In this document: one piece after another, positions 5,191 through 24,939 of the stretch | Position numbering within the stretch: the first letter of the stretch is position 1 | Layout of the letters: the number at the start of each line of letters is the position of its first letter | IMG/VR virus record: IMGVR_UViG_2695420421_000007 | Length of the DNA: 30,950 bases | Source of the DNA: a virus | Lineage: Duplodnaviria; Heunggongvirae; Uroviricota; Caudoviricetes | Strand: one strand, 5' to 3' | Position numbers and translations under genes: made by a program | Notes under the pieces: generated by a model | The model's input: the letters and a program-made list of their open reading frames with translations, nothing else | Database searches by the model: none | What the model was told of the DNA's origin: nothing

Positions 5191-5502
5191 TTAGCCGGGC
5201 TGTGTGCCAGTCTTGCGGGATTTTTGAGAAGACGATGTGTTTTCTGGCCCATCAGGGGAGAGAGAAGGACTGATCTGCCCAGCAGCCTCATTTGTTTCGT
5301 TACTCATCAACCACGTAGTGTATTTTTTAAATTCCGGGTGCATTGTGATTTTCAGTAAAACCTCCGTTCCCACACCTCGAATACCAGTCTCGTATTGCTT
5401 AACCGTACCAACCGCAATACCTATTGAATCCGCGAACTTTGCCTGACTAAGCCCCTCAGATTCTCGAATTGCTTTTAGCTTCTTTGATATCTCTATTGAC
5501 AT
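5191..5502 (-). CDS. C: P2 C-type immunity repressor (about 104 aa)
   Basis: From the internal Met (MSIEISKKLKAIRESEGLSQAKFADSIGIAVGTVKQYETG...TTWLMSNE...AGQISP) the translation parallels the P2 C repressor as recalled from memory (HTH, then a FTKYTLWFM-like block). Divergent from the early operon, upstream of int. Confidence 0.78.
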   Translation of the reverse strand: MSIEISKKLKAIRESEGLSQAKFADSIGIAVGTVKQYETGIRGVGTEVLLKITMHPEFKKYTTWLMSNETNEAAGQISPSLSPDGPENTSSSQKSRKTGTQPG

Positions 5503-5597
5503 GGTGTGCACCTGAATACTATATTGGTTATCAGTTGAGTACCACTTGACGCTACAAAGAGCCACAAATAGCACCAGATTGAATAGGTTATCACACC
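5503..5597. promoter_or_regulatory. Immunity switch region: divergent repressor and early promoters with candidate operators
   Basis: 95-bp gap between divergent C and the first early gene. Direct repeats AT(T/A)GGTTATCA at about 5520-5530 and 5580-5590 flank a TTGACG -35-like hexamer (about 5546). Confidence 0.45.
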
Positions 5598-5876
5598 ATG
5601 GCAAAAGTCCTTAACACATACGAACAAGCGGATTTTGAGCGTTTGGCGGCGTTCTACCCATACCGTAATGAACATGGGCTACCGGTACTTGAAGAAAGCC
5701 TAGAGGATTATGCGAAACGCACAAATCAAAGCATTCTCGCTGTAAGAAGGCAGGCTGATAGATCGGTAATTCCCGTTACTCAAGAAGGAAGAAACACAAA
5801 ACGCAAAGTAAATCTCTTCGCAATTTTCCTGAAAACCATCAGAAACGCAGAGAAATACGTGCAGATGACAAAATAA
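5598..5876 (+). CDS. First early-operon gene, positional equivalent of Cox/Apl (92 aa); function inferred from position only
   Basis: Divergent from C immediately across the operator region. Sequence does not obviously match P2 Cox. Confidence 0.5.
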   Translation: MAKVLNTYEQADFERLAAFYPYRNEHGLPVLEESLEDYAKRTNQSILAVRRQADRSVIPVTQEGRNTKRKVNLFAIFLKTIRNAEKYVQMTK

Positions 5877-5890: not shown

Positions 5891-6229
5891 ATGCTGAAGC
5901 AACGCCGTAATTTTTGTACCGGAACAGAACGCCACGCTAACCGTTTCACTACCAGTGCATCACGCAGCAACATCCGCTACAGCCTGAGTGATACACACGC
6001 AACGCCGGATGGCTACCCAGTAAAACAAATCGGCGAGCACGCCTGGCTGATTGAGAAAGCTGGAATCGTGATCCACAAATGCCCACGCAATCCGTTTACC
6101 GGAAACCGCATTTTTGCACTGAGCTGTGGCGACAATCAGTTCGGGCAGGATTTCACATTATACGAAGCACTTCGCACGGTTGATCGTCTGCTTCGCGGGC
6201 AAAGTTTTATTAAACAGGCTGATTTATAA
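5891..6229 (+). CDS. Hypothetical early phage protein (112 aa)
   Basis: ORF in the early operon with ATG start and GAGG upstream; no recognisable motif. Confidence 0.55.
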   Translation: MLKQRRNFCTGTERHANRFTTSASRSNIRYSLSDTHATPDGYPVKQIGEHAWLIEKAGIVIHKCPRNPFTGNRIFALSCGDNQFGQDFTLYEALRTVDRLLRGQSFIKQADL

Positions 6230-6239
6230 CAGGTGCTTT

Positions 6240-6527
6240 ATGACCAAAGACAATGCACAAGGTGTATTTATCCGTTTTATTGATTTTCGCGGTGAACTGT
6301 TATTACGTGCATCCGCTATTGACGGAGTGACTCCGGCGGGTAAAAACGGAGCCGACGAAGCCACTTACGTTTATCTGAACGGCACGCGACTGCTTGTGGA
6401 ACTTCCGTACCAGACCGTACGAGAAATCATCAGCGAAGATGAAAAGGCACGCCAGGTTAATGGCGATGAACCCTATATCGAAATTATTTGTATGGATTCA
6501 GAAGCTGAAATACAGAAAGCAGATTAA
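6240..6527 (+). CDS. Hypothetical early phage protein (95 aa)
   Basis: In-frame ATG at 6240 within ORF 6126..6527, preceded by AACAGG; upstream part of the ORF overlaps the previous gene so the internal start is preferred. Confidence 0.55.
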   Translation: MTKDNAQGVFIRFIDFRGELLLRASAIDGVTPAGKNGADEATYVYLNGTRLLVELPYQTVREIISEDEKARQVNGDEPYIEIICMDSEAEIQKAD

Positions 6528-6538
6528 AGGGCGTTGTG

Positions 6539-6781
6539 ATGGGCAAAGAATATAAAACTCTCATTAACAAAGCACTTGAGCGTTTTTATTTTCGCTTAAG
6601 TGCATCAGGCGCTCATGCTGAACGTGCGGCCCGTGACTCATTGACCAGAGCAATCCGAAGTCTGTATGACGTGGCTTTTTACGCTGATGATCTGGATGCA
6701 CTTAACGAACTTTCCGAGCTGATCTGTGCCGCAGAATGCGGGGAACATATTGAACCGTATAAGCTGGGAAATATCGCATGA
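6539..6781 (+). CDS. Hypothetical early phage protein (about 80 aa)
   Basis: ORF 6536..6781; ATG at 6539 preceded by AAAGGG. Confidence 0.5.
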   Translation: MGKEYKTLINKALERFYFRLSASGAHAERAARDSLTRAIRSLYDVAFYADDLDALNELSELICAAECGEHIEPYKLGNIA

Positions 6782-6891
6782 GTATATTTATTTCATGGCT
6801 TGTTCTGATTATTTCGGTGGTCTGCGCCATTGGGATTATGCGAATTATTAATTCAGTAAAAAAGATTGAACGCTTTTTCACTGAAGAATAA
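6778..6891 (+). CDS. Small hydrophobic peptide (37 aa), predicted single-pass membrane protein
   Basis: Not in the ORF track (too short). ATG at 6778 overlaps the stop of the upstream gene (ATGA). Translation MSIFISWLVLIISVVCAIGIMRIINSVKKIERFFTEE is hydrophobic then basic. Confidence 0.4.
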   Translation: MSIFISWLVLIISVVCAIGIMRIINSVKKIERFFTEE

Positions 6892-6977
6892 CCGCGCAAA
6901 TAAGACCCTAGGTTAAATAAGAAAATGTGAAAACAATCCGCATTCGCGGAGGTATTCGCACACGCCAAGGAGGCGTA

Positions 6978-7181
6978 ATGGCAATTAAGCATTTTCCTGT
7001 CGTTCGTTTCACCTCCAGAGGACGTGAATACGAAGTTGACGAACGCCTGATTACCACAATCGACAAACACCGTTCAGAAAAGGATGCACATCATATCTAT
7101 CTCACTGACGGCACTTACTTCTGCGCCACCAACGTGGTGCAGGTGAATCTTATCAGACAGGTACAGGAGTCACGCAGATGA
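6978..7181 (+). CDS. Hypothetical early phage protein (67 aa)
   Basis: Internal ATG at 6978 directly preceded by AAGGAGG Shine-Dalgarno; ORF track gives 6927..7181. Confidence 0.5.
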   Translation: MAIKHFPVVRFTSRGREYEVDERLITTIDKHRSEKDAHHIYLTDGTYFCATNVVQVNLIRQVQESRR

Positions 7182-7423
7182 CCATTCTGGACTACATCGC
7201 TGCCAATCCGGGTTGTAGCAGTGGAGAAATCGCCGCAGCACTGAATACACCAACCACAACCATTAATGCGGAGCTACGCCGTCTCTGGCGCAGCGGTTTA
7301 GTCACAAGAAAAGAGCGCAAAACAGGCGGTCGCTTTTCTTATCAGGTAAACCTGATGCCGTTTGGGTGTAGCAACCCACTAACCCAGATGTTCAACCAGC
7401 TACTGAGGGAAATCAGAGCATGA
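7178..7423 (+). CDS. Small putative winged-helix DNA-binding protein (81 aa)
   Basis: Start overlaps the preceding stop (ATGA). Translation pattern SSGEIAAALNTPTTTINAELRRLWRSGLV resembles a wHTH fold (inference from sequence pattern only). Confidence 0.5.
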   Translation: MTILDYIAANPGCSSGEIAAALNTPTTTINAELRRLWRSGLVTRKERKTGGRFSYQVNLMPFGCSNPLTQMFNQLLREIRA

Positions 7424-7564
7424 GCACCTCCAACTGCCGGAAACCACGTCGGGCTTCAGCAGCTCATCCGGCAGCAAAACAAACTCCATTAATTCCTGTT
7501 CCGGGCCTTTCCTGCACCTTGCGGCGGGAGGCCTTCGCACATCTGTAACAAGAGGATTGCCGCA

Positions 7565-7930
7565 ATGATTCTCGCCAACGACTTTCTTGAATACCTGCTC
7601 AACACAGAGCGTGATCTTGCCGCTCGCGTGCGTGATCGTTATGACATGTACCTGAAATCCCTGCCTGTACCGCAGCTCGCTGACGGAAAGATTGTTATTG
7701 ATGGTCGCTACATGATTGACAGCCACGAGGGAAATTACAGGCTTTACCGCATTGAAGGTGGCACCCCGTCCGTTATTGGCATTTACCAGCGCCCATCCTC
7801 TGCAATCGTCGATGTGATTGCCGACAGCATCCGCATCACACATCGCCATGCCGACACAGAAGACACCGTGCTGGAAATTCAGCGGCTGGCTACAGTCTGC
7901 CGCGACACCCTGAATGGCATGACGAAGTAA
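7565..7930 (+). CDS. Hypothetical early phage protein (121 aa)
   Basis: ORF immediately upstream of the replication gene; no recognisable motif. Confidence 0.5.
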   Translation: MILANDFLEYLLNTERDLAARVRDRYDMYLKSLPVPQLADGKIVIDGRYMIDSHEGNYRLYRIEGGTPSVIGIYQRPSSAIVDVIADSIRITHRHADTEDTVLEIQRLATVCRDTLNGMTK

Positions 7931-7936
7931 ATCACT

Positions 7937-10759
7937 ATGACGGCAGAGTACATCAGGGACTGGCAACAACCGCGCCACGCAGTGGGGCGTGAAGGAACGG
8001 GGATCCCCGCTCCTGAATCCGCGCTTTCCTCCTGGCTGGATGCCCACCGGGCAGAGAACGAGCGCCGCCAGGAAATGGCTGATGCGGCGTTCTCCGCCAC
8101 GCCACTGGGCAACCTGATTAATAAAAGCCTGGACGCACAGGAAAAACAGGACAAAACCATCACACTGGCAGGAGACGCCAGAAAACAGGCACGCGGCGCG
8201 GTGGATGAAGCCATGGCCTCGCTGCGCCTGCTGCCGTCCTATCTGCGCGATCCGCTTATTCGCCACCTCTCCTTCCTGCGCAAAAAACAGGAAGCCGATC
8301 GCCGGAAAGGCAAAAAGAGCTGGCAGGCGGAACGCTATGCACGCGGAACCCTGCGCAAAATATTCGAACGTCTGGATCGCACTGACGGACACTGGCTGAC
8401 ACCGGGTTATCGCTCCCTTGCCGGACGTGAACGCCTGGACGATTTGCTTTACCTGCCGCAACTCAACAAACACCAGATACAGACGCTGGCCACCATGACG
8501 GCGGCGATGTTCAGCAGCACCTTCGAAAAACTCTGCGATGGTTTTGGCGCGACTGATGGCGAGCTGACCATGGATGTAACGCTGAAGGCGTATCAGATGC
8601 TGGCCCGCATGGCGTTACACTTACACGCCATGCCTCCGCATTATGACGCACTGACAACAGACAAAGACCGGAGGCACGAACCGGACACAGAACTGCTGCC
8701 GGGCGCAATCCTTCGCCTGACCTGTGCGGAATGGTGGAAACGCAAACTGTGGCTGTTACGTTGCGAGTGGAGAGAAGAACAACTTCGCGCCGCCTGTCTG
8801 GTTTCCAGAAAAACATCGCCCTATCTGAGCCAGGACGCGTTAAGCGAGTTTCGCGCACAGCGCGAGAAAACACGCGATTTCCTGAAAAGTTTCATGCTGG
8901 AAAATGAAGACGGGTTCACGATTGATCTCGAGACGGTGTATTACGCGGGAGTAAGTAACCCGGTTCACCGTAAGGCAGAAATGATGGCCACCATGAAGGG
9001 GCTGGAACTTCTGGCCGAAGCCCGTGGCGACAAAGCGGTGTTTCTGACTGTCACCTGCCCGTCAAAATACCACGCCACAACGGAGAACGGTCATCCGAAT
9101 CCCAAATGGAACGGGGCCACAATGCGCGACTCCAGCGATTACCTGGTTAACACGTTTTTTGCGACGGTCCGCAAAAAACTGAACCGCGACGGCCTGCGCT
9201 GGTATGGCATCCGCACGGCGGAGCCTCACCATGACGGCACCGTGCACTGGCATATGATGGTCTTTGCTCATCCGGAAGAAATCGACACCATTGTGTCCCA
9301 CACCCGCGATATTGCCATTCAGGAAGATCGTCACGAGCTGGGCGATGACATAACTCCGCGCTTTAAGGCGGAGTATGTAGACGGCTCAAAAGGCACGCCA
9401 ACCAGCTACATCGCCACCTACATCGGGAAAAACCTGGACAGCCGCGCCGTGGATGGCATCGACCCGAAAACGGGCAAGCCACGCGTTGACCACGAAACCG
9501 GAAAATCAATGGCCGAGAGCGTGGAACGCGCCATCGGCTGGGCGCGCCTTCACCGGGTCCGCCAGTTCCAGTTCTTTGGCATCCCCTCCCGCCAGGTATG
9601 GCGTGAACTGCGCCGCCTTGCCAGCCAGATGGCACGCAACCCGGAAGGCCCGCAACGGCTGAAGGATGACGCAATGGATGCGGTTCTTGCCGCCGCTGAT
9701 GCCGGATGTTTTGCCACCTACATAGAGAAACAGGGCGGCGTACTTGTTCCACGCAAAGACTACCTGATTCGCACCGCCTACGACCTCGCCGATGAGCTGA
9801 ACGATTACGGCGAACAGAGCGTACAGATTTACGGGATCTGGTCACCACTCATCGGGGAATCCTCCCGTGTGTGCACGCATCCGGATAACTGGAAGCTGGT
9901 AAGACGCAAACCGGAAGCGGAAGACAGCGCCCGCGAAAATGGTTTTGACCTTCAGGGCGGCCCTGCCGCCCCTTGGACTCGTGGCAATAACTGTCCCCGT
10001 GTACAGGAAACGGACAACAACGGGACAGAACAGCCGGAAGAACGGCCAGCACCGTGGCCGCAGCTCCCTGACGGCGTTGATGTGGATGAATGGATGCGCT
10101 CACTGAAACGGCACGAACGCCGGGCGCTGATGCGTTCGCTTCGTGACAAACAGGCAAAAAACAGCAGTGATGAAATGCAGAGCTGGACACAGAGCCGCAA
10201 ACAGCAGCGGCCTTTGCCTGATAACCACGAATTACTCGCTAAAGAATGGCGGGAGTCTGCTGAATCTCTCGGCCTGCATATCGGTGAACAACAGATGCAG
10301 CACCTGTTACGGGGCGGCAGTCTGTACGTTGACGGCAGCATCATTGCACCGCAGGGATTTGAAATTGTACGCAAACCGGATACCCGCCCGGACAGCCGAA
10401 TCACGCAGCTCTGGCAGCGCCTGAGCCGTAATCATGGCGTAAGCAGCACGGAGATCCGCCATAACCCGGTCGCCAGCTATCTGACACAGCTGGGGGCATC
10501 AGACCCTGAAGCCGCCGCACGCCTGGCATCCACACTTCAGCAGGACCAGAACACCATGAAAACACCCGTTACCGTGCTTTCTGACATGCTGCGCGCCATC
10601 CGCGACGCAGAGCACGCACAGAGAATCAGTGAAACCACTGAACGCGCCCGCCGCAAAGCAGACCTGCTGCGGGGTGGCCTGACCAGTGGAAACAAAAAAC
10701 AGACAGAAACGGGACTCACGAATCCCGTAAATGAGCAAAAAACGCGCAGCGATATATGA
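7937..10759 (+). CDS. A: Replication initiation endonuclease, P2 gpA family (940 aa)
   Basis: Large last gene of the early operon; contains an HxH block (HWHMMVF) and a downstream Tyr cluster (YIATYIGKN), read as the metal-binding and catalytic-tyrosine motifs of rolling-circle initiators of P2 A type. The C-terminal roughly 180 aa look like an acidic/basic low-complexity extension. Confidence 0.8.
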   Translation: MTAEYIRDWQQPRHAVGREGTGIPAPESALSSWLDAHRAENERRQEMADAAFSATPLGNLINKSLDAQEKQDKTITLAGDARKQARGAVDEAMASLRLLPSYLRDPLIRHLSFLRKKQEADRRKGKKSWQAERYARGTLRKIFERLDRTDGHWLTPGYRSLAGRERLDDLLYLPQLNKHQIQTLATMTAAMFSSTFEKLCDGFGATDGELTMDVTLKAYQMLARMALHLHAMPPHYDALTTDKDRRHEPDTELLPGAILRLTCAEWWKRKLWLLRCEWREEQLRAACLVSRKTSPYLSQDALSEFRAQREKTRDFLKSFMLENEDGFTIDLETVYYAGVSNPVHRKAEMMATMKGLELLAEARGDKAVFLTVTCPSKYHATTENGHPNPKWNGATMRDSSDYLVNTFFATVRKKLNRDGLRWYGIRTAEPHHDGTVHWHMMVFAHPEEIDTIVSHTRDIAIQEDRHELGDDITPRFKAEYVDGSKGTPTSYIATYIGKNLDSRAVDGIDPKTGKPRVDHETGKSMAESVERAIGWARLHRVRQFQFFGIPSRQVWRELRRLASQMARNPEGPQRLKDDAMDAVLAAADAGCFATYIEKQGGVLVPRKDYLIRTAYDLADELNDYGEQSVQIYGIWSPLIGESSRVCTHPDNWKLVRRKPEAEDSARENGFDLQGGPAAPWTRGNNCPRVQETDNNGTEQPEERPAPWPQLPDGVDVDEWMRSLKRHERRALMRSLRDKQAKNSSDEMQSWTQSRKQQRPLPDNHELLAKEWRESAESLGLHIGEQQMQHLLRGGSLYVDGSIIAPQGFEIVRKPDTRPDSRITQLWQRLSRNHGVSSTEIRHNPVASYLTQLGASDPEAAARLASTLQQDQNTMKTPVTVLSDMLRAIRDAEHAQRISETTERARRKADLLRGGLTSGNKKQTETGLTNPVNEQKTRSDI

Positions 10760-10801
10760 AGCGCGCACAAAACAGGCAAAAACGGGATTTCAGAATCCCG
10801 T
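10709..10801. promoter_or_regulatory. Pair of near-identical 20-bp palindromes (ACGGGAyT-N4-AATCCCGT) about 73 bp apart, spanning the A stop and the parM-like upstream region
   Basis: 10709-10728 ACGGGACTcacgAATCCCGT and 10782-10801 ACGGGATTtcagAATCCCGT, each within the same AAAAACGGGA...GAATCCCGTAAA context. Confidence 0.35.
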
Positions 10802-10835
10802 AAACGATTAATTAATCAACATAAGGAAAAGCGAC

Positions 10836-11795
10836 ATGAAAATTTGTATCGACGACGGCTCCACCAACATCAAGCTGGCATGGACTGAGAACGGCGAACG
10901 CCGCAACGCCATCAGCCCGAACAGCTTCAAGTCGGAATGGTCTGCGCCGTTCGGTGGCATGCAGCCCGCGAACTACATGCTTGATGGCGTGCGCTATGGT
11001 TTTGATCCGGTCAGCGATCGCTTTGTCCAGACAACCGACACGCAATACCAGTACAGCGATGTAAATGTCATTGCCATTCATCACGCGCTGGTCAAATCAG
11101 GCATCACGCCACAGGAGGTGGATGTGGTTGTCACCCTGCCACTGAGCGAGTATTTCGACACAAACGCACAGCCGGACATGGCCAACATCAACCGCAAAAA
11201 AGCGAACGTTATGCGCCCGGTGGAGTACCAGAACGGCGAAGCATTCACTATCCGTAACGTGCGGGTTATGCCTGAATCCATTCCGGCTGGCTTTAAGGCA
11301 CTGGCTGACATGAGTCCGTTTGAATCCCTGCTGATTGTGGATTTGGGCGGAACCACGCTGGATGTGGCAAAGGTTCAGGGGCAACTGGCAGGTATCAGCC
11401 AGGTGTTTTGCGATCCACACGTAGGCGTTTCTCTGATGGCCGATGCCGTACTGTCGGTGATGGCCACTAACGGTATGCGCACCAGTCACCACATCGCCAA
11501 TACCATTATCGAACATCGCCATGATGAAGCCTGGCTGCGCCAGCACATCCACAATGACGCGCATTACGCCAGCCTGATGGCGGTTATTCGTGAAAAGGAA
11601 GAAACACTGAAACAACGCGTGATCCGCGCGCTGGCGGGTTTTTCGGGTTACGGGCGGGTGATGGTTGTCGGTGGAGGGGCGGAGATTGTGGCACCCGCTA
11701 TCCGCGAAGCCTGCGGAGTTAATGCGACTTTCATCGCGGACGGGGTGCCACAGTTTGCTCTGGTTAATGGGCTGTACGCAATGGACAAGGAGTAA
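10836..11795 (+). CDS. ParM/StbA-like actin-family ATPase (319 aa)
   Basis: N-terminus MKICIDDGSTNIKLAW and internal blocks (YQYSDVNVIAIHHAL, VDLGGTTLDVAKV, VPAGFKA) parallel plasmid R1 ParM as recalled from memory; strong Shine-Dalgarno AAGGAAAA upstream. Confidence 0.8.
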   Translation: MKICIDDGSTNIKLAWTENGERRNAISPNSFKSEWSAPFGGMQPANYMLDGVRYGFDPVSDRFVQTTDTQYQYSDVNVIAIHHALVKSGITPQEVDVVVTLPLSEYFDTNAQPDMANINRKKANVMRPVEYQNGEAFTIRNVRVMPESIPAGFKALADMSPFESLLIVDLGGTTLDVAKVQGQLAGISQVFCDPHVGVSLMADAVLSVMATNGMRTSHHIANTIIEHRHDEAWLRQHIHNDAHYASLMAVIREKEETLKQRVIRALAGFSGYGRVMVVGGGAEIVAPAIREACGVNATFIADGVPQFALVNGLYAMDKE

Positions 11796-11799
11796 ACCA

Positions 11800-12111
11800 A
11801 TGACGACACCAACCAGACGGATAAGTTTCTATCTGAAGCCTGCGGCCGTCAAGAACGAAAGCGAAGCATGCGCCTGGCTGGGCAGCCTTACACCAGAAGC
11901 CCGCAAAAGCGGCCAACGCGTGGCTTTTCTGGCCGGGCTGGCACTTCTGAAAATGAATCCAGCAGAGGCTTACCGACTGGCTGCATGGGCTGACGATGAG
12001 GCGTTATCGGTGACACAAACCAGGACAGAACGCCCCGTGCCACAGCCAGTACCAACCGCACAGATAACCAGTCAGATAGCAGGGAATATCCGGGCATTAT
12101 TTCCTGAATGA
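11800..12111 (+). CDS. Hypothetical protein (103 aa) in the ParR-equivalent position
   Basis: ATG at 11800 preceded by AAGGAG that overlaps the parM-like stop. No recognisable motif; assignment is by position only. Confidence 0.5.
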   Translation: MTTPTRRISFYLKPAAVKNESEACAWLGSLTPEARKSGQRVAFLAGLALLKMNPAEAYRLAAWADDEALSVTQTRTERPVPQPVPTAQITSQIAGNIRALFPE

Positions 12112-12171
12112 CGAATTTGACGGCTTTTAATTTTATCGGGGTGCACTGTCGCCCCGCACGAGGAAAACACG

Positions 12172-12696
12172 ATGAAAAAATACGAATACATGCTAATGAA
12201 AGAAGCACTGCGGGCTGGTCTGGCTCCCTGTCCTGTATCCGTAGAAGCTGTTGTTGGGAACACGATTTTCCGAACGCTGCGAAATCGCGTATCCGTGAAG
12301 ATGGTTCACCAACCACCCAAATCTACCAGCATGATCTATCTGCCGCTGCCCGAGGCTATCAAACTTATGCGTTCGCTGAAATTTGCGATTTGGATGCAGA
12401 CACAAATCAACAAAGCGGTGCAAAACACCTTCGTTAAGAGACTAATACCGGAGCTTGCTGCCAGATGTGCAAAATGTACCAGACCCGCACTTCAATTTGA
12501 TCTGTCATTGATTCAACAAGCTACGGAGGCAGAACTGTACCGCCTGTCACCTATCCGTGATGCTCACACGGAAGCATCAGAAATGTTCCGGCTCATGTTT
12601 CAATTTAATTTTGCCGTTCGACGCACACGCGTTCAGGTCAATCGCATGATGCAGGAGCAGGAAGAGTTAACACAGTACAAAGGGGGCAGCCAGTGA
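12172..12696 (+). CDS. Hypothetical protein (174 aa), cos-proximal cargo
   Basis: ATG with GAGGAAAA Shine-Dalgarno; preceded by a small GC hairpin (about 12134-12152). No recognisable domain. Confidence 0.55.
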   Translation: MKKYEYMLMKEALRAGLAPCPVSVEAVVGNTIFRTLRNRVSVKMVHQPPKSTSMIYLPLPEAIKLMRSLKFAIWMQTQINKAVQNTFVKRLIPELAARCAKCTRPALQFDLSLIQQATEAELYRLSPIRDAHTEASEMFRLMFQFNFAVRRTRVQVNRMMQEQEELTQYKGGSQ

Positions 12697-12932
12697 GTAA
12701 TTCAGCACGACTACAGCTTGGTTTTTCACCGCTATCAAAAACCATCGTATTGGCAAAAATGCGTGACTTAGGAGACGGAACAAAACGCCGCGTAGGAAAT
12801 GATCGCGGTCGCGATGTAACCAACGAGGCCGCTCAACTCGTTTGGCATCTAGTCATGGCAGAAGGCGGTGAAATTAATTGGGAGCTGGATGATGGTTCTC
12901 GTATGATTTTGAGGGCCGAGAAGAGTAAATAG
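12693..12932 (+). CDS. Hypothetical protein (79 aa), translationally coupled to the upstream gene
   Basis: GTG start overlapping the upstream TGA (GTGA). Confidence 0.45.
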   Translation: MSNSARLQLGFSPLSKTIVLAKMRDLGDGTKRRVGNDRGRDVTNEAAQLVWHLVMAEGGEINWELDDGSRMILRAEKSK

Positions 12933-12946
12933 CTCAAGGGGGATTA

Positions 12947-13132
12947 ATGCTAAATGATGATGAAGAAGAGCTGCTTATGCAGGAATGGTCGCTCGGTGAT
13001 TATGATAATGGTGAAAATGGGTGCCCGCATTGTGGCCGTTATCGTTTATGTATCTGCCAGAATGGAAAACACAGATGTGAAAAGTGCAATTGGTCTCCGG
13101 AACTTAATGACTACGTGCCGATCGAGTGGTAG
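12947..13132 (+). CDS. Small Cys-rich (putative zinc-ribbon) protein (61 aa)
   Basis: AAGGGGG Shine-Dalgarno then ATG; translation contains CPHCG...CIC...CEKC. The overlapping ORF 12954..13148 is rejected in its favour. Confidence 0.5.
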   Translation: MLNDDEEELLMQEWSLGDYDNGENGCPHCGRYRLCICQNGKHRCEKCNWSPELNDYVPIEW

Positions 13133-13139
13133 AGGTAAG

Positions 13140-13620
13140 TCACACTAGGTGTTTTTTAGTTGATTTTATAAATGCACAATAGTGCACAAATTTGCACAAT
13201 TTTTTTGAACGACTTTTTGCCCTTCCGGCCCGCGTGGCGGCTGGATCCGTCAAGGATCCGTGCATGCACAAAAAAACGCGTTTTTTCTGCGCGCAGGTGA
13301 CGGGGGAACAGCCCGCGTTTCAGGGGGTAAATAGCATTCCCTGAACGATGTCGCAGAGATACAACAGAATGGCTGTATTTCTCACGCTGAGCGTGAAAAA
13401 GACGTGAGGGCTTTTGATTTGATGGGGTGAAAGGTAAGGCCGTCAAAATCGCACTGAGACGGCGAGAATATGCAGTCAACGAGGTGGGATTGCGTAAGAG
13501 TCTGACTGTCGATGATGGCAATCAGCAGGAAAGCGTCGTGAAATTATCTGACTGATACAGGAGCTGGAGAGTCGGGGCATAAATTTTTTATGCCCCGGCG
13601 AAGCAGCAGACAAGCGAAGC
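13140..13620. other. Non-coding cos-proximal region (candidate cos / packaging site) between cargo genes and portal gene
   Basis: About 480 bp without credible ORFs in the position P2 cos occupies next to Q. Contains a triple direct repeat TGCACAA (13172-13200), a tandem GGATCCGT repeat (13242-13260) and the perfect palindrome AAAAAACGCGTTTTTT (13271-13286). Confidence 0.4.
13574..13596 (-). terminator. Perfect hairpin downstream of the portal gene (possible terminator of the leftward P-Q operon)
   Basis: GGGGCATAAA-tttt-TTATGCCCC inverted repeat 28 bp past the Q stop; no clean T-run, so terminator function is uncertain. Confidence 0.35.
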
Positions 13621-13623
13621 GCG

Positions 13624-14670
13624 TCAGGATGTGGGCTGGGTGTCTAACAGTGCGTAAGGGTTAAAGCGGATCACCTCTTCGCCAAGCCAGTCATTGATGT
13701 GCTTCATGGCCTCCATGACGGGCATCAGCTCGTTAATTGCGTAAACCCGCGCGGCCTTCTCCACATCACCAAACGCACTTTTTTCGCCCGGCATCGCCCC
13801 CATCAGTTGCGGCGGAACGCGGTGCGCAGCCAGCACATCATCACGGGATGCCGCCTTAACATTCATGAACTCATCCTTTGCGGTGATCTGCTGGAACGGC
13901 AAAATTTGCACCCCCTCTTTGCCCCCGTTGGGCGCATGAATGAGCACGTTTTTAAACGCACCACCACCACGTGCCCCCTGTAGCGTTTCTTTCAGGGAGT
14001 CCATGCTTTCGCGGTTTACCTGCGCTGCACCGATGTAGATGATGCACCCGGCGTGGGATCCGTTGTCGTAGTACAGTTTTCTGAACATGTCCGCCGAATG
14101 AGAAAGGCTGGCCGAGAGTAATGCGCCAAGATATTCCGGCATGCCGTAGATTTCCTGGTTAATATCCGGATTCATCAGGTGGCACACTTTGCCAGGACGA
14201 AACTGAAACGCATCCTTGCCATCCTGCACATACCACCATGATTCAAGATCGCTTCCGCGTCGCATGTATTTCGCCAGGGCGTGCCGTAATTTAAGCGGTT
14301 CGCCGAGCATATTGCTCCGAAGCTCAAGGAATGCGTTACCGAACACAAACCAGTCCAGCGCCAGCGCCGAGAAATCCTGCCGGGAAAGCAGCGGGTGCGG
14401 AATATAGCAGCCGAGCAATACATTGCGCTTAAAGTAAAGCGCAGACTGATGCCAGGACGTTTGCCGGGCAGCTCTTGCCAGACCGTACCAGTCCACCGGG
14501 GTTTCATACCACCGCCCGTTATCAGCACAGTACATATTGTCCAGCAGGTCATGCCCGGTCAGGCGGTAAGGACCATCAAATGTGAATGCACTGAGCGACG
14601 ATTCTTTCCTGAGCGCATCAGCGAGATCAATGCGTGAACTCATGCGCACTTTTTTATTTTTTCTGCTCAT
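13624..14670 (-). CDS. Q: Capsid portal protein (P2 gpQ-like, 348 aa)
   Basis: Translation parallels P2 Q as recalled from memory (WYE.PV...GLAR, LDWFVFGNAFLE, PDINQEIYGMPEYL, VIRFNPY..LDTQPT); start overlaps the P stop. Confidence 0.88.
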   Translation of the reverse strand: MSRKNKKVRMSSRIDLADALRKESSLSAFTFDGPYRLTGHDLLDNMYCADNGRWYETPVDWYGLARAARQTSWHQSALYFKRNVLLGCYIPHPLLSRQDFSALALDWFVFGNAFLELRSNMLGEPLKLRHALAKYMRRGSDLESWWYVQDGKDAFQFRPGKVCHLMNPDINQEIYGMPEYLGALLSASLSHSADMFRKLYYDNGSHAGCIIYIGAAQVNRESMDSLKETLQGARGGGAFKNVLIHAPNGGKEGVQILPFQQITAKDEFMNVKAASRDDVLAAHRVPPQLMGAMPGEKSAFGDVEKAARVYAINELMPVMEAMKHINDWLGEEVIRFNPYALLDTQPTS

Positions 14671-16421
14671 CAGAACTCCATAACCGTGAAACGCTCGTTT
14701 TCTCCTTCGCCGCCAATCGGTTCGTTAATGACAGCAAGCATGGTTGCCCACGCAAGGTCGCCGTGGCTGATCCCCCTCGCGCGGTCCGTTTCGTAAGTGA
14801 TAAAACCGCCCGGTGTTTTCACCTTACGCACGGCGTTAAAGGCCGCAACCAGCTCGCGTTCGGCGCGATCGTATTCCCACCGCCCGGCACGCATTATTTG
14901 CAGCATTTTCAGTACCAGCGACCGTTTTGATGACAGCGTGAAGGTGTAAGGGATGGCGGCGGGAAAAAACCGTTTCACTATCTGATAGACGGCATCCCCG
15001 TGCCCGCCCGTCGCATCAATGCCGATGTGTTCCACGTTGTAGCGATACGTGAACTCTTCAATAACTCTGGCCTGCTCTTCAAATTCCAGCCCCTGAACGC
15101 GTCGCGTCTCCACCGTTCTGAAACGACCACCAGGAACAGCCGGAGGAACCACCACGGACACAGCGCCGCTGTCGCCGTTACCACTGCTGCCGTTTGCGTC
15201 ATACCCAATCCATACCGGACGATTCCCCATCGGGCGGGGGGCAAAGGGTTTCCAGTCTTTCCAGTCGTCGTATCCGTCAACACCGCAGCCAATCAGGATA
15301 TTCAGGTTAAATGCCGATTCCCCTTCGCGGACAAACTCACACATATAGAGATTGCGGAACTCGTCTTCGGTGTTTTCATCACGAATTTCATCAATATCGG
15401 TGTGTTTCCAGCCGTGATTAACCACATCTTCCAGCGTGACAATTTGCCGCCACGTCCGGTCAGGGCAGATAAGCCCGTTATGCAGCGTTTTCCAGTCCAC
15501 AGAAAAACGCTGGCGTTTATGCGCGGCCTTTTTCTCGTTCCAGCGGTCGCCGTTCCAGTAGGCGTATGCCTCGTGCGTTTCGGTGGATGGCGTGGAGAAG
15601 CAGGTGCGCCGCAGTCCGCTGAGGGTTGCCATAGCGCCAGCCACCTTGCGCAGTTCAGCAAAGCGACTGACCCAGAAAAATTCATCAAAATAAAAATTGC
15701 CCGTGTAAGATTGCGCCGTCGCAGCAGAAGTGCCGAGAAAATGCATCTCTGCGCCGTTGGAGAGGATGATTTTATCGCCCCCTTTCAGCTCCACATCGAC
15801 TTCAGCCGCGGCCTTCTGAATAATGCTTTTAAACTGGAACGCCTGACGACGCGACGCAGACAAAAAAATCTGGTTACGCTGGTAAGGTTGTGCCACATCG
15901 TCACGCAGCGCCATCAGCAGTGCTTCCTGTGCAAAATACCAGGTCGCCCCAATCTGTCGGGATTTCAGGATCATCCTGTTACGTATCCCGGCTTCCCTGC
16001 AAAGCGTCAGGGAGTCAAACCAGCCCCGCTGATGCCACTCCAGCCTGCTGATGATTTTTTCCCGCAGTGCGGCAATCTGTTCCGGCGTGAAATGATTTTT
16101 GAGTTTTTTCGCCCGGCCTTTCTTTCCTGTGGCCGTCGCATCCGGCTGGCCATCATGCAGTTTTTTAAGCTGCCGGGTCAGCAGGTCTATTTCCTTAAAG
16201 TCACCACCTGTTTTATTCTGTTTTTCAGTAAGCTGGATGAGGCGCGCATCGATGGACTGCGTGACACGCTGCACGGGTGGCGTTTCATCCCACTGGTCGC
16301 GTTTTTTCCACGCATAAATCGTGTTCGGGTTTATTCCCATCAGACGTGATATTTCTGCGGGCGGATAACCCTGCCAGTAAAGTTGCCGCGCACGCTGGCG
16401 CACAAAAGCGTCCTGAATCAT
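14670..16421 (-). CDS. P: Terminase large subunit / ATPase (P2 gpP-like, 583 aa)
   Basis: Size and synteny (divergent from O, upstream of Q) match P2 gpP; translation is consistent with a terminase ATPase/nuclease. Confidence 0.88.
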   Translation of the reverse strand: MIQDAFVRQRARQLYWQGYPPAEISRLMGINPNTIYAWKKRDQWDETPPVQRVTQSIDARLIQLTEKQNKTGGDFKEIDLLTRQLKKLHDGQPDATATGKKGRAKKLKNHFTPEQIAALREKIISRLEWHQRGWFDSLTLCREAGIRNRMILKSRQIGATWYFAQEALLMALRDDVAQPYQRNQIFLSASRRQAFQFKSIIQKAAAEVDVELKGGDKIILSNGAEMHFLGTSAATAQSYTGNFYFDEFFWVSRFAELRKVAGAMATLSGLRRTCFSTPSTETHEAYAYWNGDRWNEKKAAHKRQRFSVDWKTLHNGLICPDRTWRQIVTLEDVVNHGWKHTDIDEIRDENTEDEFRNLYMCEFVREGESAFNLNILIGCGVDGYDDWKDWKPFAPRPMGNRPVWIGYDANGSSGNGDSGAVSVVVPPAVPGGRFRTVETRRVQGLEFEEQARVIEEFTYRYNVEHIGIDATGGHGDAVYQIVKRFFPAAIPYTFTLSSKRSLVLKMLQIMRAGRWEYDRAERELVAAFNAVRKVKTPGGFITYETDRARGISHGDLAWATMLAVINEPIGGEGENERFTVMEF

Positions 16422-16575
16422 TGCTCCCCCTGAGTAATTACAGGAAGATTACCCGCGCGCGAAACCGTTCTCCTTAACCCCCTGTTCTGGCCGTTTTCTT
16501 ACAACAAAAGCCCTTTGTATCAGCCTGTTACGCTTTGCCATCATGACTGAAGAACCAGTCAGAGGGGCAAAAACT
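16422..16575. promoter_or_regulatory. Divergent late-promoter region between P and O
   Basis: Intergenic gap between divergent late operons. A partial dyad TGTTCTGGCCGTTTTCTTACAACA is present, but its spacing does not match the TGT-N12-ACA activator site I recall for P2 late promoters. Confidence 0.35.
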
Positions 16576-17412
16576 ATGGCTAATGAAAAAAAGACATCCC
16601 GCAAAAAGTTTCGCGTGGCTGTCTCCGGATCAACTGTTGATGGCCGTGAAATCAGTCCGGTGCATCTGCGTGAAGCCGCCGAGAACTTCAACCCGGATGT
16701 TTACGCTGCCCGCGTGAACGTTGAGCACTATCTCTCGCCATGCCCGTCAAGCGAATTTTCCGCAATGGGCGATGTCACCGCACTGAGTACGGAAGACATT
16801 ACGGAAGGTCCGCTGGCCGGACGTACTGCGCTGTATGCAGAAATCGAACCGACCGAGCGCATGAAGCAGCTTGTCGCGGACGGCAAGAAAATCTATTCCA
16901 GTATCGAACTGCACCCGCAGTTCTCCGTTAACGGGCGCGCCTATCTGGTCGGGCTGGCGATGACCGACACCCCGGCAAGCCTGGGCACTGAGCGCCTGAA
17001 ATTCACGGCACAGCAACGTCAGGCGGTGATGACGTTCAACAGTATCCAGGGTGAAGCACCGCTTATCTCCGAAGCCATCGAGTCTGAAATCATCGAAATG
17101 GCAGAACAACGCCAGGAAGAAGGCACCCAGTGGTTTAACCGCGTAATGGGGATTATTGGTCGTGGCCGCAAAGCGGATGACGCCAGTTTCTCCCGTATTC
17201 AGGAAGCGGTGGAAAGCGTCGCAACGTCACAGGCCGACATTATCGACCGTTTTAATGCGCTGGAAACACGCCATCAGCAGGACAGCCAGAAAATCACTTT
17301 ACTGACCACGGAGCTGACAGCACTGAAGGAAAAACTGCGCACGCAGGACGGCGATCCGCAGAACCGGTTCACCGCAACGGGCGCAGCCTCCGACCAGCTG
17401 GCTGACTTCTGA
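16576..17412 (+). CDS. O: Capsid scaffolding protein (P2 gpO-like)
   Basis: Start taken at the ATG of MANEKKTSRKKFRVAVSGSTVDGREISPVHL, which parallels the P2 O N-terminus as recalled; ORF track begins at 16543. Confidence 0.82.
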   Translation: MANEKKTSRKKFRVAVSGSTVDGREISPVHLREAAENFNPDVYAARVNVEHYLSPCPSSEFSAMGDVTALSTEDITEGPLAGRTALYAEIEPTERMKQLVADGKKIYSSIELHPQFSVNGRAYLVGLAMTDTPASLGTERLKFTAQQRQAVMTFNSIQGEAPLISEAIESEIIEMAEQRQEEGTQWFNRVMGIIGRGRKADDASFSRIQEAVESVATSQADIIDRFNALETRHQQDSQKITLLTTELTALKEKLRTQDGDPQNRFTATGAASDQLADF

Positions 17413-17435
17413 TAAGACAAAGGAGCAAATTTTTT

Positions 17436-18488
17436 ATGAATCTGGTGATGTCAGATATTACCCGCAACAAGCTGGGTTGCTATATGGCGCAGCAGGCGTC
17501 GCTTAACAATATCCCGGTTTCTGCACTGGTATCGCGATTTACCGTGGAACCTGCGGTGCAGCAACGTTTTGAAAACGCCTCAAAGGATAGCACCGAACTT
17601 ACAAAAAAAATTAACGTGATCGGCGTGACCGACCAGAAAGGCGAAAAAATCCTCCTGGACACCACAGGACCGATTGCACGCACAAATACCAGTTATGACG
17701 GAACAAAACGCCGTAACCCGAATAACGTGGTTGATCTGAAAAACCGCAAATACCAGTGCGAACAGGTGAACTACGACACGTTTATTTCGTATCCGCAGCT
17801 TGATGCCTGGTCGGCACACAGCGATTTTCAGTCCCGCATCAGCGCACAGATTGCCCGACAGGTGGCACTTGACCGCATCATGATCGGTTTCAACGGCACA
17901 TCTCACGCGGATGAGTCCAACTTCAGCACCAACAAGCTGCTTCAGGACGTTAACGTGGGGTGGCTGGAGCACATCAGAACCAATGCCAGCGAGCGCGTAA
18001 TGAATGACGTGACGCTGACTTCCCGCAACATGGACAACACCGTGGCGCACGCGGGTAAATACGCGAACCCTGATGCACTGGTACAGGACGCGCGCTCATC
18101 TCTGCTGGATGAATGGCACAAGGAAGCTGACGACCTCGTGGTGATTATGGGGCGCAACCTGTTTAACTCGCTGCGTCTGCCAGTGCTGAACAGCATCAGC
18201 GGCCAGAATCCCAATGCGGAATTACTTGCCGGGCAGCTCATCCTGTCATCGCGCACCATTGGCGGGCTGGGTGTGTTCCTTGCACCGTTCTTCCCGGATG
18301 CAACGATGCTGATCACCTCATTCAACAACCTGTCGATTTACTGGCAGAAAGGTTCAATGCGTCGTCTGATGAAAGACGAACCGGAATACAACCGCATCGC
18401 CACCTACCAGTCCATCAATGACGCTTATGTCGTTGAAGACTATGGCAAGTGCGCGATGGTCACTGGCCTGAAGTTCGCCGACAGCTAA
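17436..18488 (+). CDS. N: Major capsid protein (P2 gpN-like, 350 aa)
   Basis: Blocks FTVEPAVQQ, KYQCEQVNYDTFISY, MIGFNGT, DLVVIMGR, NLSIYW, YVVEDY parallel P2 N as recalled; AAGGAG Shine-Dalgarno. Confidence 0.9.
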   Translation: MNLVMSDITRNKLGCYMAQQASLNNIPVSALVSRFTVEPAVQQRFENASKDSTELTKKINVIGVTDQKGEKILLDTTGPIARTNTSYDGTKRRNPNNVVDLKNRKYQCEQVNYDTFISYPQLDAWSAHSDFQSRISAQIARQVALDRIMIGFNGTSHADESNFSTNKLLQDVNVGWLEHIRTNASERVMNDVTLTSRNMDNTVAHAGKYANPDALVQDARSSLLDEWHKEADDLVVIMGRNLFNSLRLPVLNSISGQNPNAELLAGQLILSSRTIGGLGVFLAPFFPDATMLITSFNNLSIYWQKGSMRRLMKDEPEYNRIATYQSINDAYVVEDYGKCAMVTGLKFADS

Positions 18489-18533
18489 TCAACTCACGGC
18501 GGGCATCATGCCCGCCTGTAACGGAGAGAAAAA

Positions 18534-19334
18534 ATGATTACTCCTGCACAGCAACACTGGCAGAACGTGATGGCACAGCGCGCAGGCCGGGCGAATGAAG
18601 GTGTGGACCACGCCGCGCGTACCGCGCATGAAGAGGTGCTGTATCGTCTGCGTCTGGCACAGGCCCGGCTTAAGGGCGTACAGGCCAGAAGCGCGAAAGC
18701 CGACATCAAAAAAGCGTTGTTGCCGGACTTTTCCGGCTGGATTGAGGGAACGCTGGAGGCTGACGGCGGGCAACAGGACGAAGTGATTGCCACGCTGATG
18801 GTGTGGGCGATTGACTGCGGCGATCTTCCGCTTGCGCTGCGTATTGGTGCGTATGCGGTCCGTCACAACCTCATCATGCCGGATAACTTTGGCCGTACTG
18901 CTGCCACAGTGCTGACCGAAGAAATCTGCAATCCGGTACTGACGCAGGCCGGGACGGATGCCGACGCGGATTTGTCCGTCTTTATCGAACCACTGGACAC
19001 ACTTTGGGAAATTGTCGCCAACCAGGATATGCCGGACGAAGTGCGCGCCAAATTATGCAAGGCGTGCGCCTTTGCCCGCCGTGGCCTGAGCGATGCGGAC
19101 AGCATGGCCTCATCACTGAAGCTGCTGCGCGAAGCGATGCATCTGAACCAGAACGCAGGTGTGAAACGCGAGATTGCAACCCTTTCCCGCGCCCTGAAAA
19201 AAGCCGATTCCGCAGCCGCACCAGAAGACGCCAGCGCACAGCAGGCGCAGGACGAAAGCAGCGAAAGTAAAAAGACAACGCGGAAGCCTGCAACACGAAA
19301 AACCACCGCGACGCAGAAGGCGAAGCGCGGTTAA
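18534..19334 (+). CDS. M: Terminase small subunit / endonuclease (P2 gpM-like, 266 aa)
   Basis: Block ADMPDEVRAKL and QNAGVKREI with a basic C-terminal tail parallel P2 M as recalled. Confidence 0.88.
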   Translation: MITPAQQHWQNVMAQRAGRANEGVDHAARTAHEEVLYRLRLAQARLKGVQARSAKADIKKALLPDFSGWIEGTLEADGGQQDEVIATLMVWAIDCGDLPLALRIGAYAVRHNLIMPDNFGRTAATVLTEEICNPVLTQAGTDADADLSVFIEPLDTLWEIVANQDMPDEVRAKLCKACAFARRGLSDADSMASSLKLLREAMHLNQNAGVKREIATLSRALKKADSAAAPEDASAQQAQDESSESKKTTRKPATRKTTATQKAKRG

Positions 19335-19435
19335 CGACTGACCCCGTCAGCGGGCGGCGTGCGCGGTGTTCCGGTTTGGCTCCGTGACCGTTTACACCGC
19401 GCACCCACCGCCCGATTTTTTCAGGAGTGAACCCC

Positions 19436-19930: not shown

Positions 19931-20127
19931 TGAAAGTGAAGACACTGGAAGGCGACACCGTGGATTCGCTCTGTTTCCGGTACTACGGCACGACGCAGGG
20001 CGTCACCGAAAAGGTGCTGGATGCCAACCCCGGACTCTGCCGACAGGTATTTCTGGAAGCCGGACAGGAGGTGGAAATGCCGGAGCCGGAGAAGAAAAAA
20101 CAACGAGAGATGATACAGCTATGGTAA
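19930..20127 (+). CDS. X: Tail protein X (P2 gpX-like, 65 aa)
   Basis: Internal start MKVKTLEGDTVDSLCFRYYG...VLDANPGL parallels P2 X as recalled; ATG overlaps the L stop. Confidence 0.8.
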   Translation: MKVKTLEGDTVDSLCFRYYGTTQGVTEKVLDANPGLCRQVFLEAGQEVEMPEPEKKKQREMIQLW

Positions 20128-23514: not shown

Positions 23515-23517
23515 ATC

Positions 23518-24937: not shown

Positions 24938-24939
24938 GC

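What the first reader, a model, noticed from the sequence alone, without database searches (positions are those of the whole stretch)
12172..13132. Three small translationally coupled genes of unknown function at the cos-proximal end
Seen in sequence: a 174-aa gene, a 79-aa gene starting with GTG overlapping the upstream stop, and a 61-aa Cys-cluster protein, all with good ribosome-binding sites and none matching a family I recognise. Established knowledge: this position corresponds to the P2 tin/old cargo slot. Inference: candidate defence or anti-defence operon distinct from the ParM-like pair.
Basis: partly seen in the sequence, partly recalled or inferred. Interest (0 to 1): 0.65.

Follow-up and report, generated by a model that had tools for sequence, protein, structure and literature searches.

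The report
Patchwork small cargo genes in prophage
Three real but uncharacterised small genes sit in the known variable "cargo" slot of a P2-family prophage, but they are three independently shuffled phage accessory genes rather than one defence operon, so the finding is largely ordinary.

Summary
The three ORFs exist exactly as described: 174 aa, 79 aa with a GTG start overlapping the upstream stop, and a 61-aa Cys-rich protein. All three are under purifying selection. They fill a 1.06-kb low-GC segment (12112-13172) between parMR and the cos/portal region of a P88-like (Xuanwuvirus) P2-family prophage. This is the published gpA-gpQ diversity hotspot.

They are not a co-inherited system. Breakpoint mapping shows three modules of different origin:
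- g1 occurs in E. coli P88-like prophages, where an Ead/Ea22-like gene follows it.
- g2 is Pfam DUF7446, common in lambdoid nin/ea regions and phage-plasmids.
- g3 is a zinc-ribbon protein shared, with its cos-proximal DNA, with Salmonella P2-like phages.

A portable linker (AAAGGAGGCAACCAGTGAG: Shine-Dalgarno plus GTGA overlap) joins unrelated gene pairs. That accounts for the "translational coupling".

No match to PADLOC, NCBIfam, Old, Tin or the Rst 3HP system. AlphaFold models were too poor to use.

The genes run in the same direction as the early replication/partition array, unlike P2 old/tin. My best reading is that they are individually acting early accessory proteins (host takeover, counter-defence or developmental modulation). 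Function remains untested. Interest is low to moderate.

The parts
12112..13172 (.). Variable cargo segment of the gpA-portal hotspot (46.7% GC against about 55% in the flanking backbone)
   Evidence: blastn breakpoints against P88 and relatives: backbone homology ends at 12112 and resumes at 13171-13173. GC content.
12172..12696 (+). g1: 174-aa basic protein (pI 10.0, +12), predicted mostly helical, orphan family
   Evidence: ORF. Only 8 clusters at 90% identity and 3 at 50% identity. dN/dS 0.27-0.50. No family or PDB hit. Module 12105-12700 is shared with E. coli P88-like prophages, where an Ead/Ea22-like gene follows it. Listed as 'hypothetical' in Rousset et al. Table S5A.
12679..12697 (+). 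Portable junction linker AAAGGGGGCAGCCAGTGAG (consensus AAAGGAGGCAACCAGTGAG): Shine-Dalgarno sequence plus GTGA stop/start overlap
   Evidence: Within 250 kb of fetched loci plus the window, the motif (3 or fewer mismatches) occurs 9 times, always at gene junctions. It joins different gene pairs: g1>Ead, g1>DUF7446, 75aa>DUF7446, 55aa>DUF7446 and DUF7446>EaD, in both P2-like and P22-like genomes.
12693..12932 (+). g2: 79-aa DUF7446 protein with a GTG start
   Evidence: PF24233 E=1e-16, phrog_1578 E=2e-32. 372 homologous clusters, most about 80% identical across Enterobacteriaceae. dN/dS 0.08-0.16 against L003 and L019. Module 12672/12681-12923 is shared with lambdoid/P22-like phages and phage-plasmids.
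12947..13132 (+). g3: 61-aa acidic (pI 4.4) zinc-ribbon-type protein with an acidic N-terminus
   Evidence: phrog_24897 E=3e-46. Invariant W14, L16, G17, Y19, C26, C29, C35, C44 and C47; C37 nearly invariant. Weak zinc-ribbon matches to L37Ae, TFIIB and RpoM. dN/dS about 0.1. Module 12917-13326 is 88% identical to Salmonella P2-like prophage L004 and includes downstream cos-proximal DNA.
10836..12111 (+). Context: ParM (10836-11795) and ParR/StbB-like (11800-12111) partition pair, part of the conserved P88 backbone
   Evidence: Pfam StbA_N/ParM_N and Plasmid_stab_B. Conserved in all P88-like relatives.
13173..13623 (.). Context: conserved cos-proximal non-coding segment upstream of the portal gene (13624-14670, - strand). 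It begins with a weak hairpin plus T7 run at 13182-13204.
   Evidence: Homology to P88-like phages resumes here. Terminator-like site 13182-13197; the fold is not better than shuffles.
5496..5525 (+). Context: strong sigma-70-like early promoter (TTGACA-18-TATATT, 11 of 12) heading the co-directional array that ends with g1-g3
   Evidence: Consensus scan. No convincing + strand terminator between it and 13182.

Best explanation
The region is the variable cargo segment of the gpA-portal (cos-proximal) hotspot of a P88-like, P2-family prophage. It holds three genuine small protein genes that form a recombinational patchwork rather than an evolved system. Each gene circulates independently among temperate phages of Enterobacteriaceae. 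They were joined at gene boundaries, in part through a portable linker (Shine-Dalgarno plus GTGA stop/start overlap) that both couples translation and provides micro-homology for module exchange.

Shown: the genes are real, the mosaic structure, the linker, the lack of similarity to known defence proteins, and co-orientation with the early array.

Inferred: the three genes are transcribed as the 3' end of the rightward early/replication-partition array, from the early promoter and possibly a ParR-controlled par promoter. They then act individually as small non-enzymatic binding proteins during lytic development. g1 is a basic helical protein and a possible nucleic-acid binder. g2 is a DUF7446 protein with predicted mixed strand/helix secondary structure (low-confidence model). 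g3 is an acidic zinc ribbon and a possible protein or DNA-mimic binder. Their likely roles are modulating host functions, competing elements or host defences (host takeover or counter-defence), not protecting the lysogen as a defence system.
For: Real genes: dN/dS of 0.5 or less, and conserved families.

Hotspot: the backbone is 95-98% identical to P88 relatives on both sides, while the slot content differs (P88: zf-ClpX plus hypotheticals; others: SSB, Ead/Ea22, YafO toxin). Literature: PMC9122126.

Independent assortment and breakpoints at gene boundaries. Linker found only at junctions of unrelated gene pairs. Low GC of the slot.

Early-accessory reading:
- g2 homologues sit in lambdoid nin regions (after O/P or DnaB) and ea regions (after erf/abc), i.e. 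delayed-early lytic operons, and in strings of small early genes of other phage genera.
- Distant g3 homologues lie in similar small-gene strings of other phage types, for example next to a P22-type portal gene or NinG/NinX genes, and beside the DNA polymerase gene of a Lactococcus phage.
- The trio is co-directional with gpA-parMR, with no promoter-like site in the 60-nt gap before g1. This resembles P2 orf91 and differs from the convergent, separately promoted old/tin.
- No transmembrane segments or enzymatic domains, and extreme charges.
Against: No functional or expression data exist. Promoter and terminator scans are consensus matches only, at or below the number found in shuffled sequence for promoters. 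A par-operon promoter could keep the genes on in the lysogen, which would be compatible with a defence role.

The hotspot is enriched for defence systems, and many unknown cargo genes there have tested positive (PMC9122126; bioRxiv 10.64898/2026.02.27.708500). Structure models were low confidence (pLDDT 49.8 and 55.0), so no fold-level inference was possible. The exact trio is frequent in Shigella sonnei and E. coli O28ac (640-900 contigs each), so some benefit to the lysogen is not excluded.
Confidence: 0.5

Rival explanations
1. Lysogen-expressed anti-phage defence or superinfection-exclusion cassette: the three proteins work together, or g1 alone does, to block competing phages, as old/tin do in P2.
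For: The location is the gpA-gpQ hotspot, where known defence systems are common and untested cargo often scores positive. Low-GC cargo. The exact trio is common in S. sonnei and E. coli isolates. Neighbouring variants of the slot carry a YafO toxin.
Against: No PADLOC hit. No similarity to Old, Tin, orf91 or Rst 3HP. The genes do not co-occur outside one lineage. Orientation and the lack of their own promoter differ from old/tin. g2 and g3 relatives sit in lytic early operons of other phages. The proteins are tiny, with no effector-like domain or transmembrane segment.
Confidence: 0.12
2. Modulators of the lysis-lysogeny or induction decision, like the lambda exo-xis region genes (ea22, ea8.5, orf60a/61/63). 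These are early-expressed small proteins that tune development rather than fight defences.
For: g1 and g2 are habitually adjacent to Ead/Ea22-like genes, with overlapping stop/start codons. Exo-xis genes are early-expressed small proteins affecting lysogenisation, and include a zinc-binding member (abstracts of PMC7093339, PMC8614690 and PMC3824215).
Against: No sequence similarity of g1-g3 to lambda Ea8.5, Ea22, orf60a, orf61, orf63 or lambdap35. Adjacency to Ead/Ea22 may only reflect the shared linker-mediated shuffling pool.
Confidence: 0.2
3. Accessory factors for the phage's own DNA transactions at this locus, for example helpers of ParMR partition/replication or of cos recognition and packaging. 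g3 is the last gene before cos in two P2-like lineages.
For: g3 occupies the same last-before-cos position in Salmonella P2-like phages that have a different gpA, and it shares the downstream cos-proximal DNA. One distant homologue lies just upstream of a putative small terminase. g1 is strongly basic.
Against: P88 and most relatives lack all three genes yet share the same parMR, cos region and packaging genes, so the genes are dispensable for these processes. Other g3 homologues lie next to exonuclease, ParB-like or methyltransferase-like genes, not packaging genes.
Confidence: 0.1

Closest known systems
P2-like phage gpA-gpQ (cos-proximal) diversity hotspot, Rousset et al. 2022 (PMC9122126)
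   Same: Same location between the replication endonuclease and the portal, next to cos. Same behaviour: content swapped among near-identical phages. The 'StbA + Plasmid_stab_B + hypothetical (g1, WP_000759755) + Ead_Ea22' arrangement is listed in their Table S5A.
   Different: The cargo here has no recognised defence domain and was not among the systems they tested. The g1+DUF7446+zinc-ribbon combination was absent from 5,426 complete E. coli genomes. One genome has g2+g3 behind different genes.
P2 old/tin lysogenic-conversion genes and P2 orf91
   Same: Same slot. Like orf91, the trio follows the replication gene in the same orientation.
   Different: old/tin are convergent to gene A and have their own mapped mRNA starts near cos. 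No sequence similarity to Tin or orf91, and no PADLOC model (which would cover Old-type proteins) matched any of the three.
Small accessory genes of lambdoid nin and ea (exo-xis) regions, with modular exchange at conserved gene-boundary sequences (the latter from my own knowledge of lambdoid mosaicism, e.g. the HK620/HK97 comparisons; not checked in a paper here)
   Same: g2 (DUF7446) is a regular resident of these regions, usually overlapping an Ead/Ea22-like gene by 4 nt. The same SD+GTGA linker is found there and in this window.
   Different: Here the genes sit in a P2-family early operon. No similarity to the characterised lambda exo-xis proteins.
Rst_3HP ('hp + hp + hp'), the three-gene P2-hotspot defence system of Rousset et al.
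   Same: Three genes without predicted domains in the same hotspot.
   Different: Its proteins are about 230-370 aa and unrelated (best BLASTP E=1.3).

Membership tests
Cargo of the P2-like gpA-gpQ hotspot | Lies between the replication endonuclease gpA and the portal gpQ, adjacent to cos | tested here: met
   gpA 7937-10759, parMR, g1-g3, then portal 13624-14670 (-) and terminase. Definition from PMC9122126.
Cargo of the P2-like gpA-gpQ hotspot | Content varies among otherwise near-identical phages | tested here: met
   Flanks are 95-98% identical to P88, L001, L011 and L020, while 12112-13172 is replaced.
P2 Old/Tin-type lysogenic conversion genes | Sequence homology to Old (OLD-family ATPase/nuclease) or Tin | tested here: not met
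   No PADLOC or Pfam hit. BLASTP against Tin and orf91 gave E>1.
P2 Old/Tin-type lysogenic conversion genes | Own promoter, transcribed convergently to the early operon, expressed in the lysogen | tested here: inconclusive
   The orientation is the opposite of old/tin, and no promoter-like site precedes g1. Expression cannot be measured with these tools.
Known anti-phage defence systems (PADLOC-DB v2) | Match to any defence protein model | tested here: not met
   0 families for g1, g2, g3, ParM and ParR at E<=1.
Rst_3HP (hp+hp+hp) | Homology to its three proteins | tested here: not met
   BLASTP best E=1.3. Sequences taken from Table S2A.
Pfam PF24233 DUF7446 (g2) | Score above the gathering threshold over the full domain | tested here: met
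   61 bits against cut-off 24.1, profile positions 2-67 of 70. Homologues carry PF24233.
Zinc-ribbon fold (g3) | Two CxxC knuckles conserved across the family | tested here: met
   C26-x2-C29 and C44-x2-C47 are invariant in 20 sequences, with additional C35 and C37. Metal binding itself is not testable here.
Zinc-ribbon fold (g3) | Significant match to a curated zinc-ribbon family or a solved structure | tested here: inconclusive
   Zn_ribbon_IS1595 at 17.1 bits is below the 25.4 cut-off. PDB profile hits have E=0.05-0.2 (RpoM, L37Ae, TFIIB).
Ogr/Delta zinc-finger late-gene activators of P2-like phages (considered for g3) | Match to the Pfam Ogr_Delta family | tested here: not met
   The only Pfam hit at E<=1 is Zn_ribbon_IS1595.
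Lambda exo-xis region proteins (Ea8.5, Ea22, orf60a/61/63) | Sequence homology | tested here: not met
   BLASTP best E=1.6.
A co-evolving multi-gene system (operon in the functional sense) | Genes co-occur across lineages | tested here: not met
   The trio was found only in the window and its Shigella sonnei twin L014. g1, g2 and g3 are otherwise found separately.

The most novel reading that the evidence does not exclude
One or more of these small proteins is a new counter-defence or host-takeover factor spread among many phage families by linker-mediated module shuffling. The leading candidates are DUF7446, which is about 80% conserved across prophages of many Enterobacteriaceae genera and present in several phage genera and phage-plasmids, and the acidic zinc-ribbon g3.
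Probability: 0.3. Interest if true: 0.55.

Novelty: new member of a known kind. Interest (0 to 1): 0.27.

Why it matters
If the reading is right, the value is mainly cautionary and cartographic. Sitting in a defence hotspot does not make a gene set a defence system, and apparent operon features (tight spacing, overlapping stop/start) can be by-products of portable junction sequences that shuffle single genes between P2-like and lambdoid phages.

The three proteins are widespread 'hypothetical proteins'. The exact alleles occur on hundreds of Shigella sonnei and E. coli contigs, and DUF7446 is found across Enterobacteriaceae. Assigning any of them a function would therefore annotate many genomes. 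Nothing here points to a new kind of biology.

Tried and rejected
- AlphaFold2 on g1 (6-sequence alignment, pLDDT 49.8) and g2 (23 sequences, all 76-86% identical to g2, pLDDT 55.0). Both are too poor to interpret.
- Profile search of g1 against 1.84 billion representatives found only 3 clusters.
- PDB sequence and profile searches found nothing for g1 and g2, and only weak zinc-ribbon hits for g3.
- NCBIfam and PADLOC found nothing. Rfam found nothing in the whole window.
- Literature searches for DUF7446 and for peptide strings of the three proteins returned 0 papers.
- The genes preceding DUF7446 in lambdoid phages, including a 174-aa one, were tested for relation to g1 and are unrelated.
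- A P2/186-type cos sequence could not be located by pattern; the only match is a chance-level hit inside gpA. I therefore give no cos coordinates.
- The hairpin after g3 is not more stable than shuffled sequence.
- The idea that g3 is packaging-associated was rejected, because its neighbours in other phages are heterogeneous.

Full report
**Context.** The window is a P88-like (Xuanwuvirus, Peduoviridae) P2-family prophage with host flank. Positions 5927-25000 match phage P88 and relatives at 94-96% identity. The left end carries host btuC/E/D-type genes and an NlpC/P60 gene. Then follow two cargo ORFs, an integrase (4164-5291, -) and an HTH repressor.

On the + strand, a strong sigma-70-like promoter (5496-5525, 11 of 12 matches) heads a co-directional array:
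- small early genes
- replication endonuclease gpA (7937-10759)
- ParM (10836-11795) and a ParR/StbB-like protein (11800-12111)
- the three ORFs of the finding
- a non-coding cos-proximal stretch

The portal (13624-14670) and large terminase (14670-16421) lie on the - strand (same layout annotated in relatives).

**Observation.** Each has a Shine-Dalgarno sequence. g2 starts with a GTG that overlaps the g1 TGA (GTGA). g3 starts 14 nt after the g2 stop.

All three are real genes. dN/dS against homologues is 0.27-0.50 for g1, 0.08-0.31 for g2 and about 0.1 for g3. For g2 and g3, the proteins stay conserved while synonymous sites are saturated in distant comparisons. None has a transmembrane-like segment. 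g1 is very basic (pI 10.0), g3 very acidic (pI 4.4, 6 Cys) and g2 mildly basic (pI 9.4, net charge about +2).

**Family assignment.**
- g1 has no hit in Pfam, PHROGs, PADLOC, NCBIfam or PDB sequences. It has only 8 clusters at 90% identity in 5.8 billion proteins and 3 at 50% identity in 1.84 billion, and no tblastn hit in 50,697 phage records.
- g2 is Pfam DUF7446 (61 bits, cut-off 24.1) and phrog_1578. It has 372 homologous clusters, and the best 120 are 78-96% identical to g2, spanning Escherichia, Salmonella, Enterobacter, Citrobacter, Kluyvera, Hafnia and Lelliottia.
- g3 is phrog_24897. In a 20-sequence alignment, the C26xxC29 and C44xxC47 knuckles plus C35, W14, L16, G17 and Y19 are invariant, and C37 is nearly so. 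Profile matches to solved zinc ribbons (RpoM, L37Ae, TFIIB) are weak, with E=0.05-0.2.
- All these families have unknown function. Literature searches for DUF7446 and for peptide strings returned nothing.

**The slot.** blastn breakpoints show that P88-type backbone homology ends at 12112, just after the parR stop, and resumes at 13171-13173. The 1.06 kb between is 46.7% GC, against about 55% for neighbours. Relatives carry other cargo here:
- P88: a ClpX-type zinc-finger protein plus hypotheticals
- E. coli PEC41: g1 plus an Ead/Ea22-like gene
- CDE6306: zf-ClpX remnant, g1, Ead remnant, a hypothetical and a YafO toxin
- a metagenomic relative: SSB-like, zf-ClpX, g1 homologue, Ead_Ea22 and two more
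- E. coli FDAARGOS_943: zf-ClpX, a 75-aa protein, g2 and an unannotated g3

This is the gpA-gpQ hotspot described by Rousset et al. 2022. They note that about a quarter of P2-like phages carry a partition system here (PMC9122126). Their Table S5A lists 'StbA + Plasmid_stab_B + hypothetical (WP_000759755 = g1 family) + Ead_Ea22'.

**Not one system.** The trio was found only in the window and in a Shigella sonnei assembly that is 99.97% identical over the 3-kb region compared. None of 5,426 complete E. coli genomes has a place covering 80% or more of 12100-13200. The modules have separate provenance:
- g1 (12105-12700) matches E. coli P88-like prophages.
- g2 (12672/12681-12923) matches lambdoid/P22-like phages and roughly 90-kb plasmids whose match spans the g2 module.
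- g3 (12917-13326) is 88% identical to Salmonella P2-like prophages that have a different 834-aa gpA, and the match includes the DNA downstream of g3. There g3 is again the last gene before the portal.

The g2/g3 breakpoint lies in the last codons of g2, which ends 'AEKSK' here. The other homologues aligned are 2-6 residues longer and have variable tails.

In lambdoid prophages, DUF7446 sits in the nin region after O/P or DnaB, or in the ea region after erf/abc. It usually overlaps a following Ead/Ea22-like gene by 4 nt. It also occurs in strings of small early genes in Lastavirus, Caminolopintovirus, Bas82 and others. More distant g3 homologues lie in similar strings, next to a putative small terminase, an exonuclease or a ParB-like gene. 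A Lactococcus phage has the zinc-ribbon half beside its DNA polymerase gene.

**The junction.** The 19-nt sequence AAAGGAGGCAACCAGTGAG occurs 9 times in about 250 kb of fetched loci plus the window (3 or fewer mismatches allowed). Every occurrence is at a gene junction. The gene pairs joined are unrelated: g1>Ead/Ea22, g1>DUF7446, 75-aa>DUF7446, 55-aa>DUF7446 and DUF7446>EaD, in both P2-like and P22-like genomes.

It contains the Shine-Dalgarno sequence and the GTGA stop/start overlap. It fixes the C-terminal 'KGG(N/S)Q' of g1 and supplies homology for exchange at gene boundaries. That conserved boundary sequences promote lambdoid mosaicism is established knowledge recalled from memory; I did not verify it in a paper here.

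**Defence tests.** PADLOC gave no hit. The only published three-gene, domain-less P2-hotspot defence ('hp+hp+hp') has proteins of about 230-370 aa, unrelated to these. Tin and orf91 are also unrelated.

In P2, tin and old are on the strand opposite gene A, with mapped old-tin mRNA starts near cos. Orf91 follows A in the same direction. The trio resembles orf91 in this respect. No promoter-like site lies in the 60-nt gap before g1; the only hit in 10600-13700 is inside g2. No convincing + strand terminator was found between the early promoter and a weak hairpin plus T7 run at 13182-13204. These scans are weak evidence. A ParR-regulated promoter in the gpA-parM spacer, which carries two 42-nt repeats with palindromes, could also drive the genes in lysogens.

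**Structures.** AF2 models were of low confidence (g1 pLDDT 49.8, g2 55.0). Fold searches gave nothing interpretable.

**Interpretation.** I am confident of the following: three real small genes, cargo of a known hotspot, a mosaic of independent modules, and no relation to known defence proteins.

I rate the following inference at about 0.5. The genes are expressed with the early lytic/replication-partition genes and act individually as small binding proteins that modulate host, competitor or defence functions.

Rivals:
- developmental modulators like the lambda exo-xis genes (0.2), although there is no homology
- a lysogen-expressed defence cassette (0.12)
- helpers of partition or packaging (0.1), disfavoured because close relatives lack these genes yet share the same parMR, cos and packaging modules

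**Novelty.** The hotspot, the g1 arrangement class and the DUF7446 family are already catalogued. The exact proteins are deposited as hypotheticals on hundreds of contigs. The particular combination and the linker observation are minor additions. Interest is low to moderate.

Noticed in passing
window 10693-10734 and 10766-10807: Two 42-nt direct repeats (81% identical, 73 nt apart), each containing the palindrome ACGGGA-N8-TCCCGT. One lies in the last codons of gpA, the other in the gpA-parM spacer just upstream of parM. Candidate parC centromere / ParR operator and par promoter region.
   Followed up: partly
window 3123-3677 (-) and 3661-4161 (-): Two overlapping ORFs between the host flank and the integrase: 184 aa, coiled-coil-like, with only sub-threshold Pfam hits; and 166 aa with a weak Zn_ribbon_13 match. 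This is the position of the minor integrase-att cargo hotspot mentioned in bioRxiv 10.64898/2026.02.27.708500.
   Followed up: no
window 45-2930 (-): Host flank: NlpC/P60 peptidase, ABC ATPase, glutathione peroxidase and FecCD-type permease (a btuD/btuE/btuC-like arrangement). The prophage left end therefore lies between about 2930 and 3120.
   Followed up: no
L020 4001-4240 (E. coli FDAARGOS_943, NZ_CP065615.1 21515-21754): A 100% identical copy of the g3 region has no annotated feature in RefSeq, so this conserved 61-aa gene is missed by the annotation pipeline in that genome.
   Followed up: partly
window 13174-13204: Three TGCACAA repeats (spacing 11-12 nt) lie at the very start of the conserved cos-proximal segment. 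Two of them form a 5-bp hairpin followed by T7. This could be a weak terminator of the early array or a protein-binding site. The fold is not better than shuffled sequence.
   Followed up: partly
L004-L006 about 5402-5812: In Salmonella P2-like prophages, g3 is preceded by a conserved 136-aa ORF that overlaps the end of gpA and has no Pfam or PHROG match.
   Followed up: partly
plasmid NZ_CP110658.1 118836-119436 (Salmonella enterica, 272 kb): The g1 module, with parR and an Ead/Ea22-like gene, also occurs on a large plasmid record. A P88-like element or its par/cargo block may therefore reside on a plasmid.
   Followed up: no
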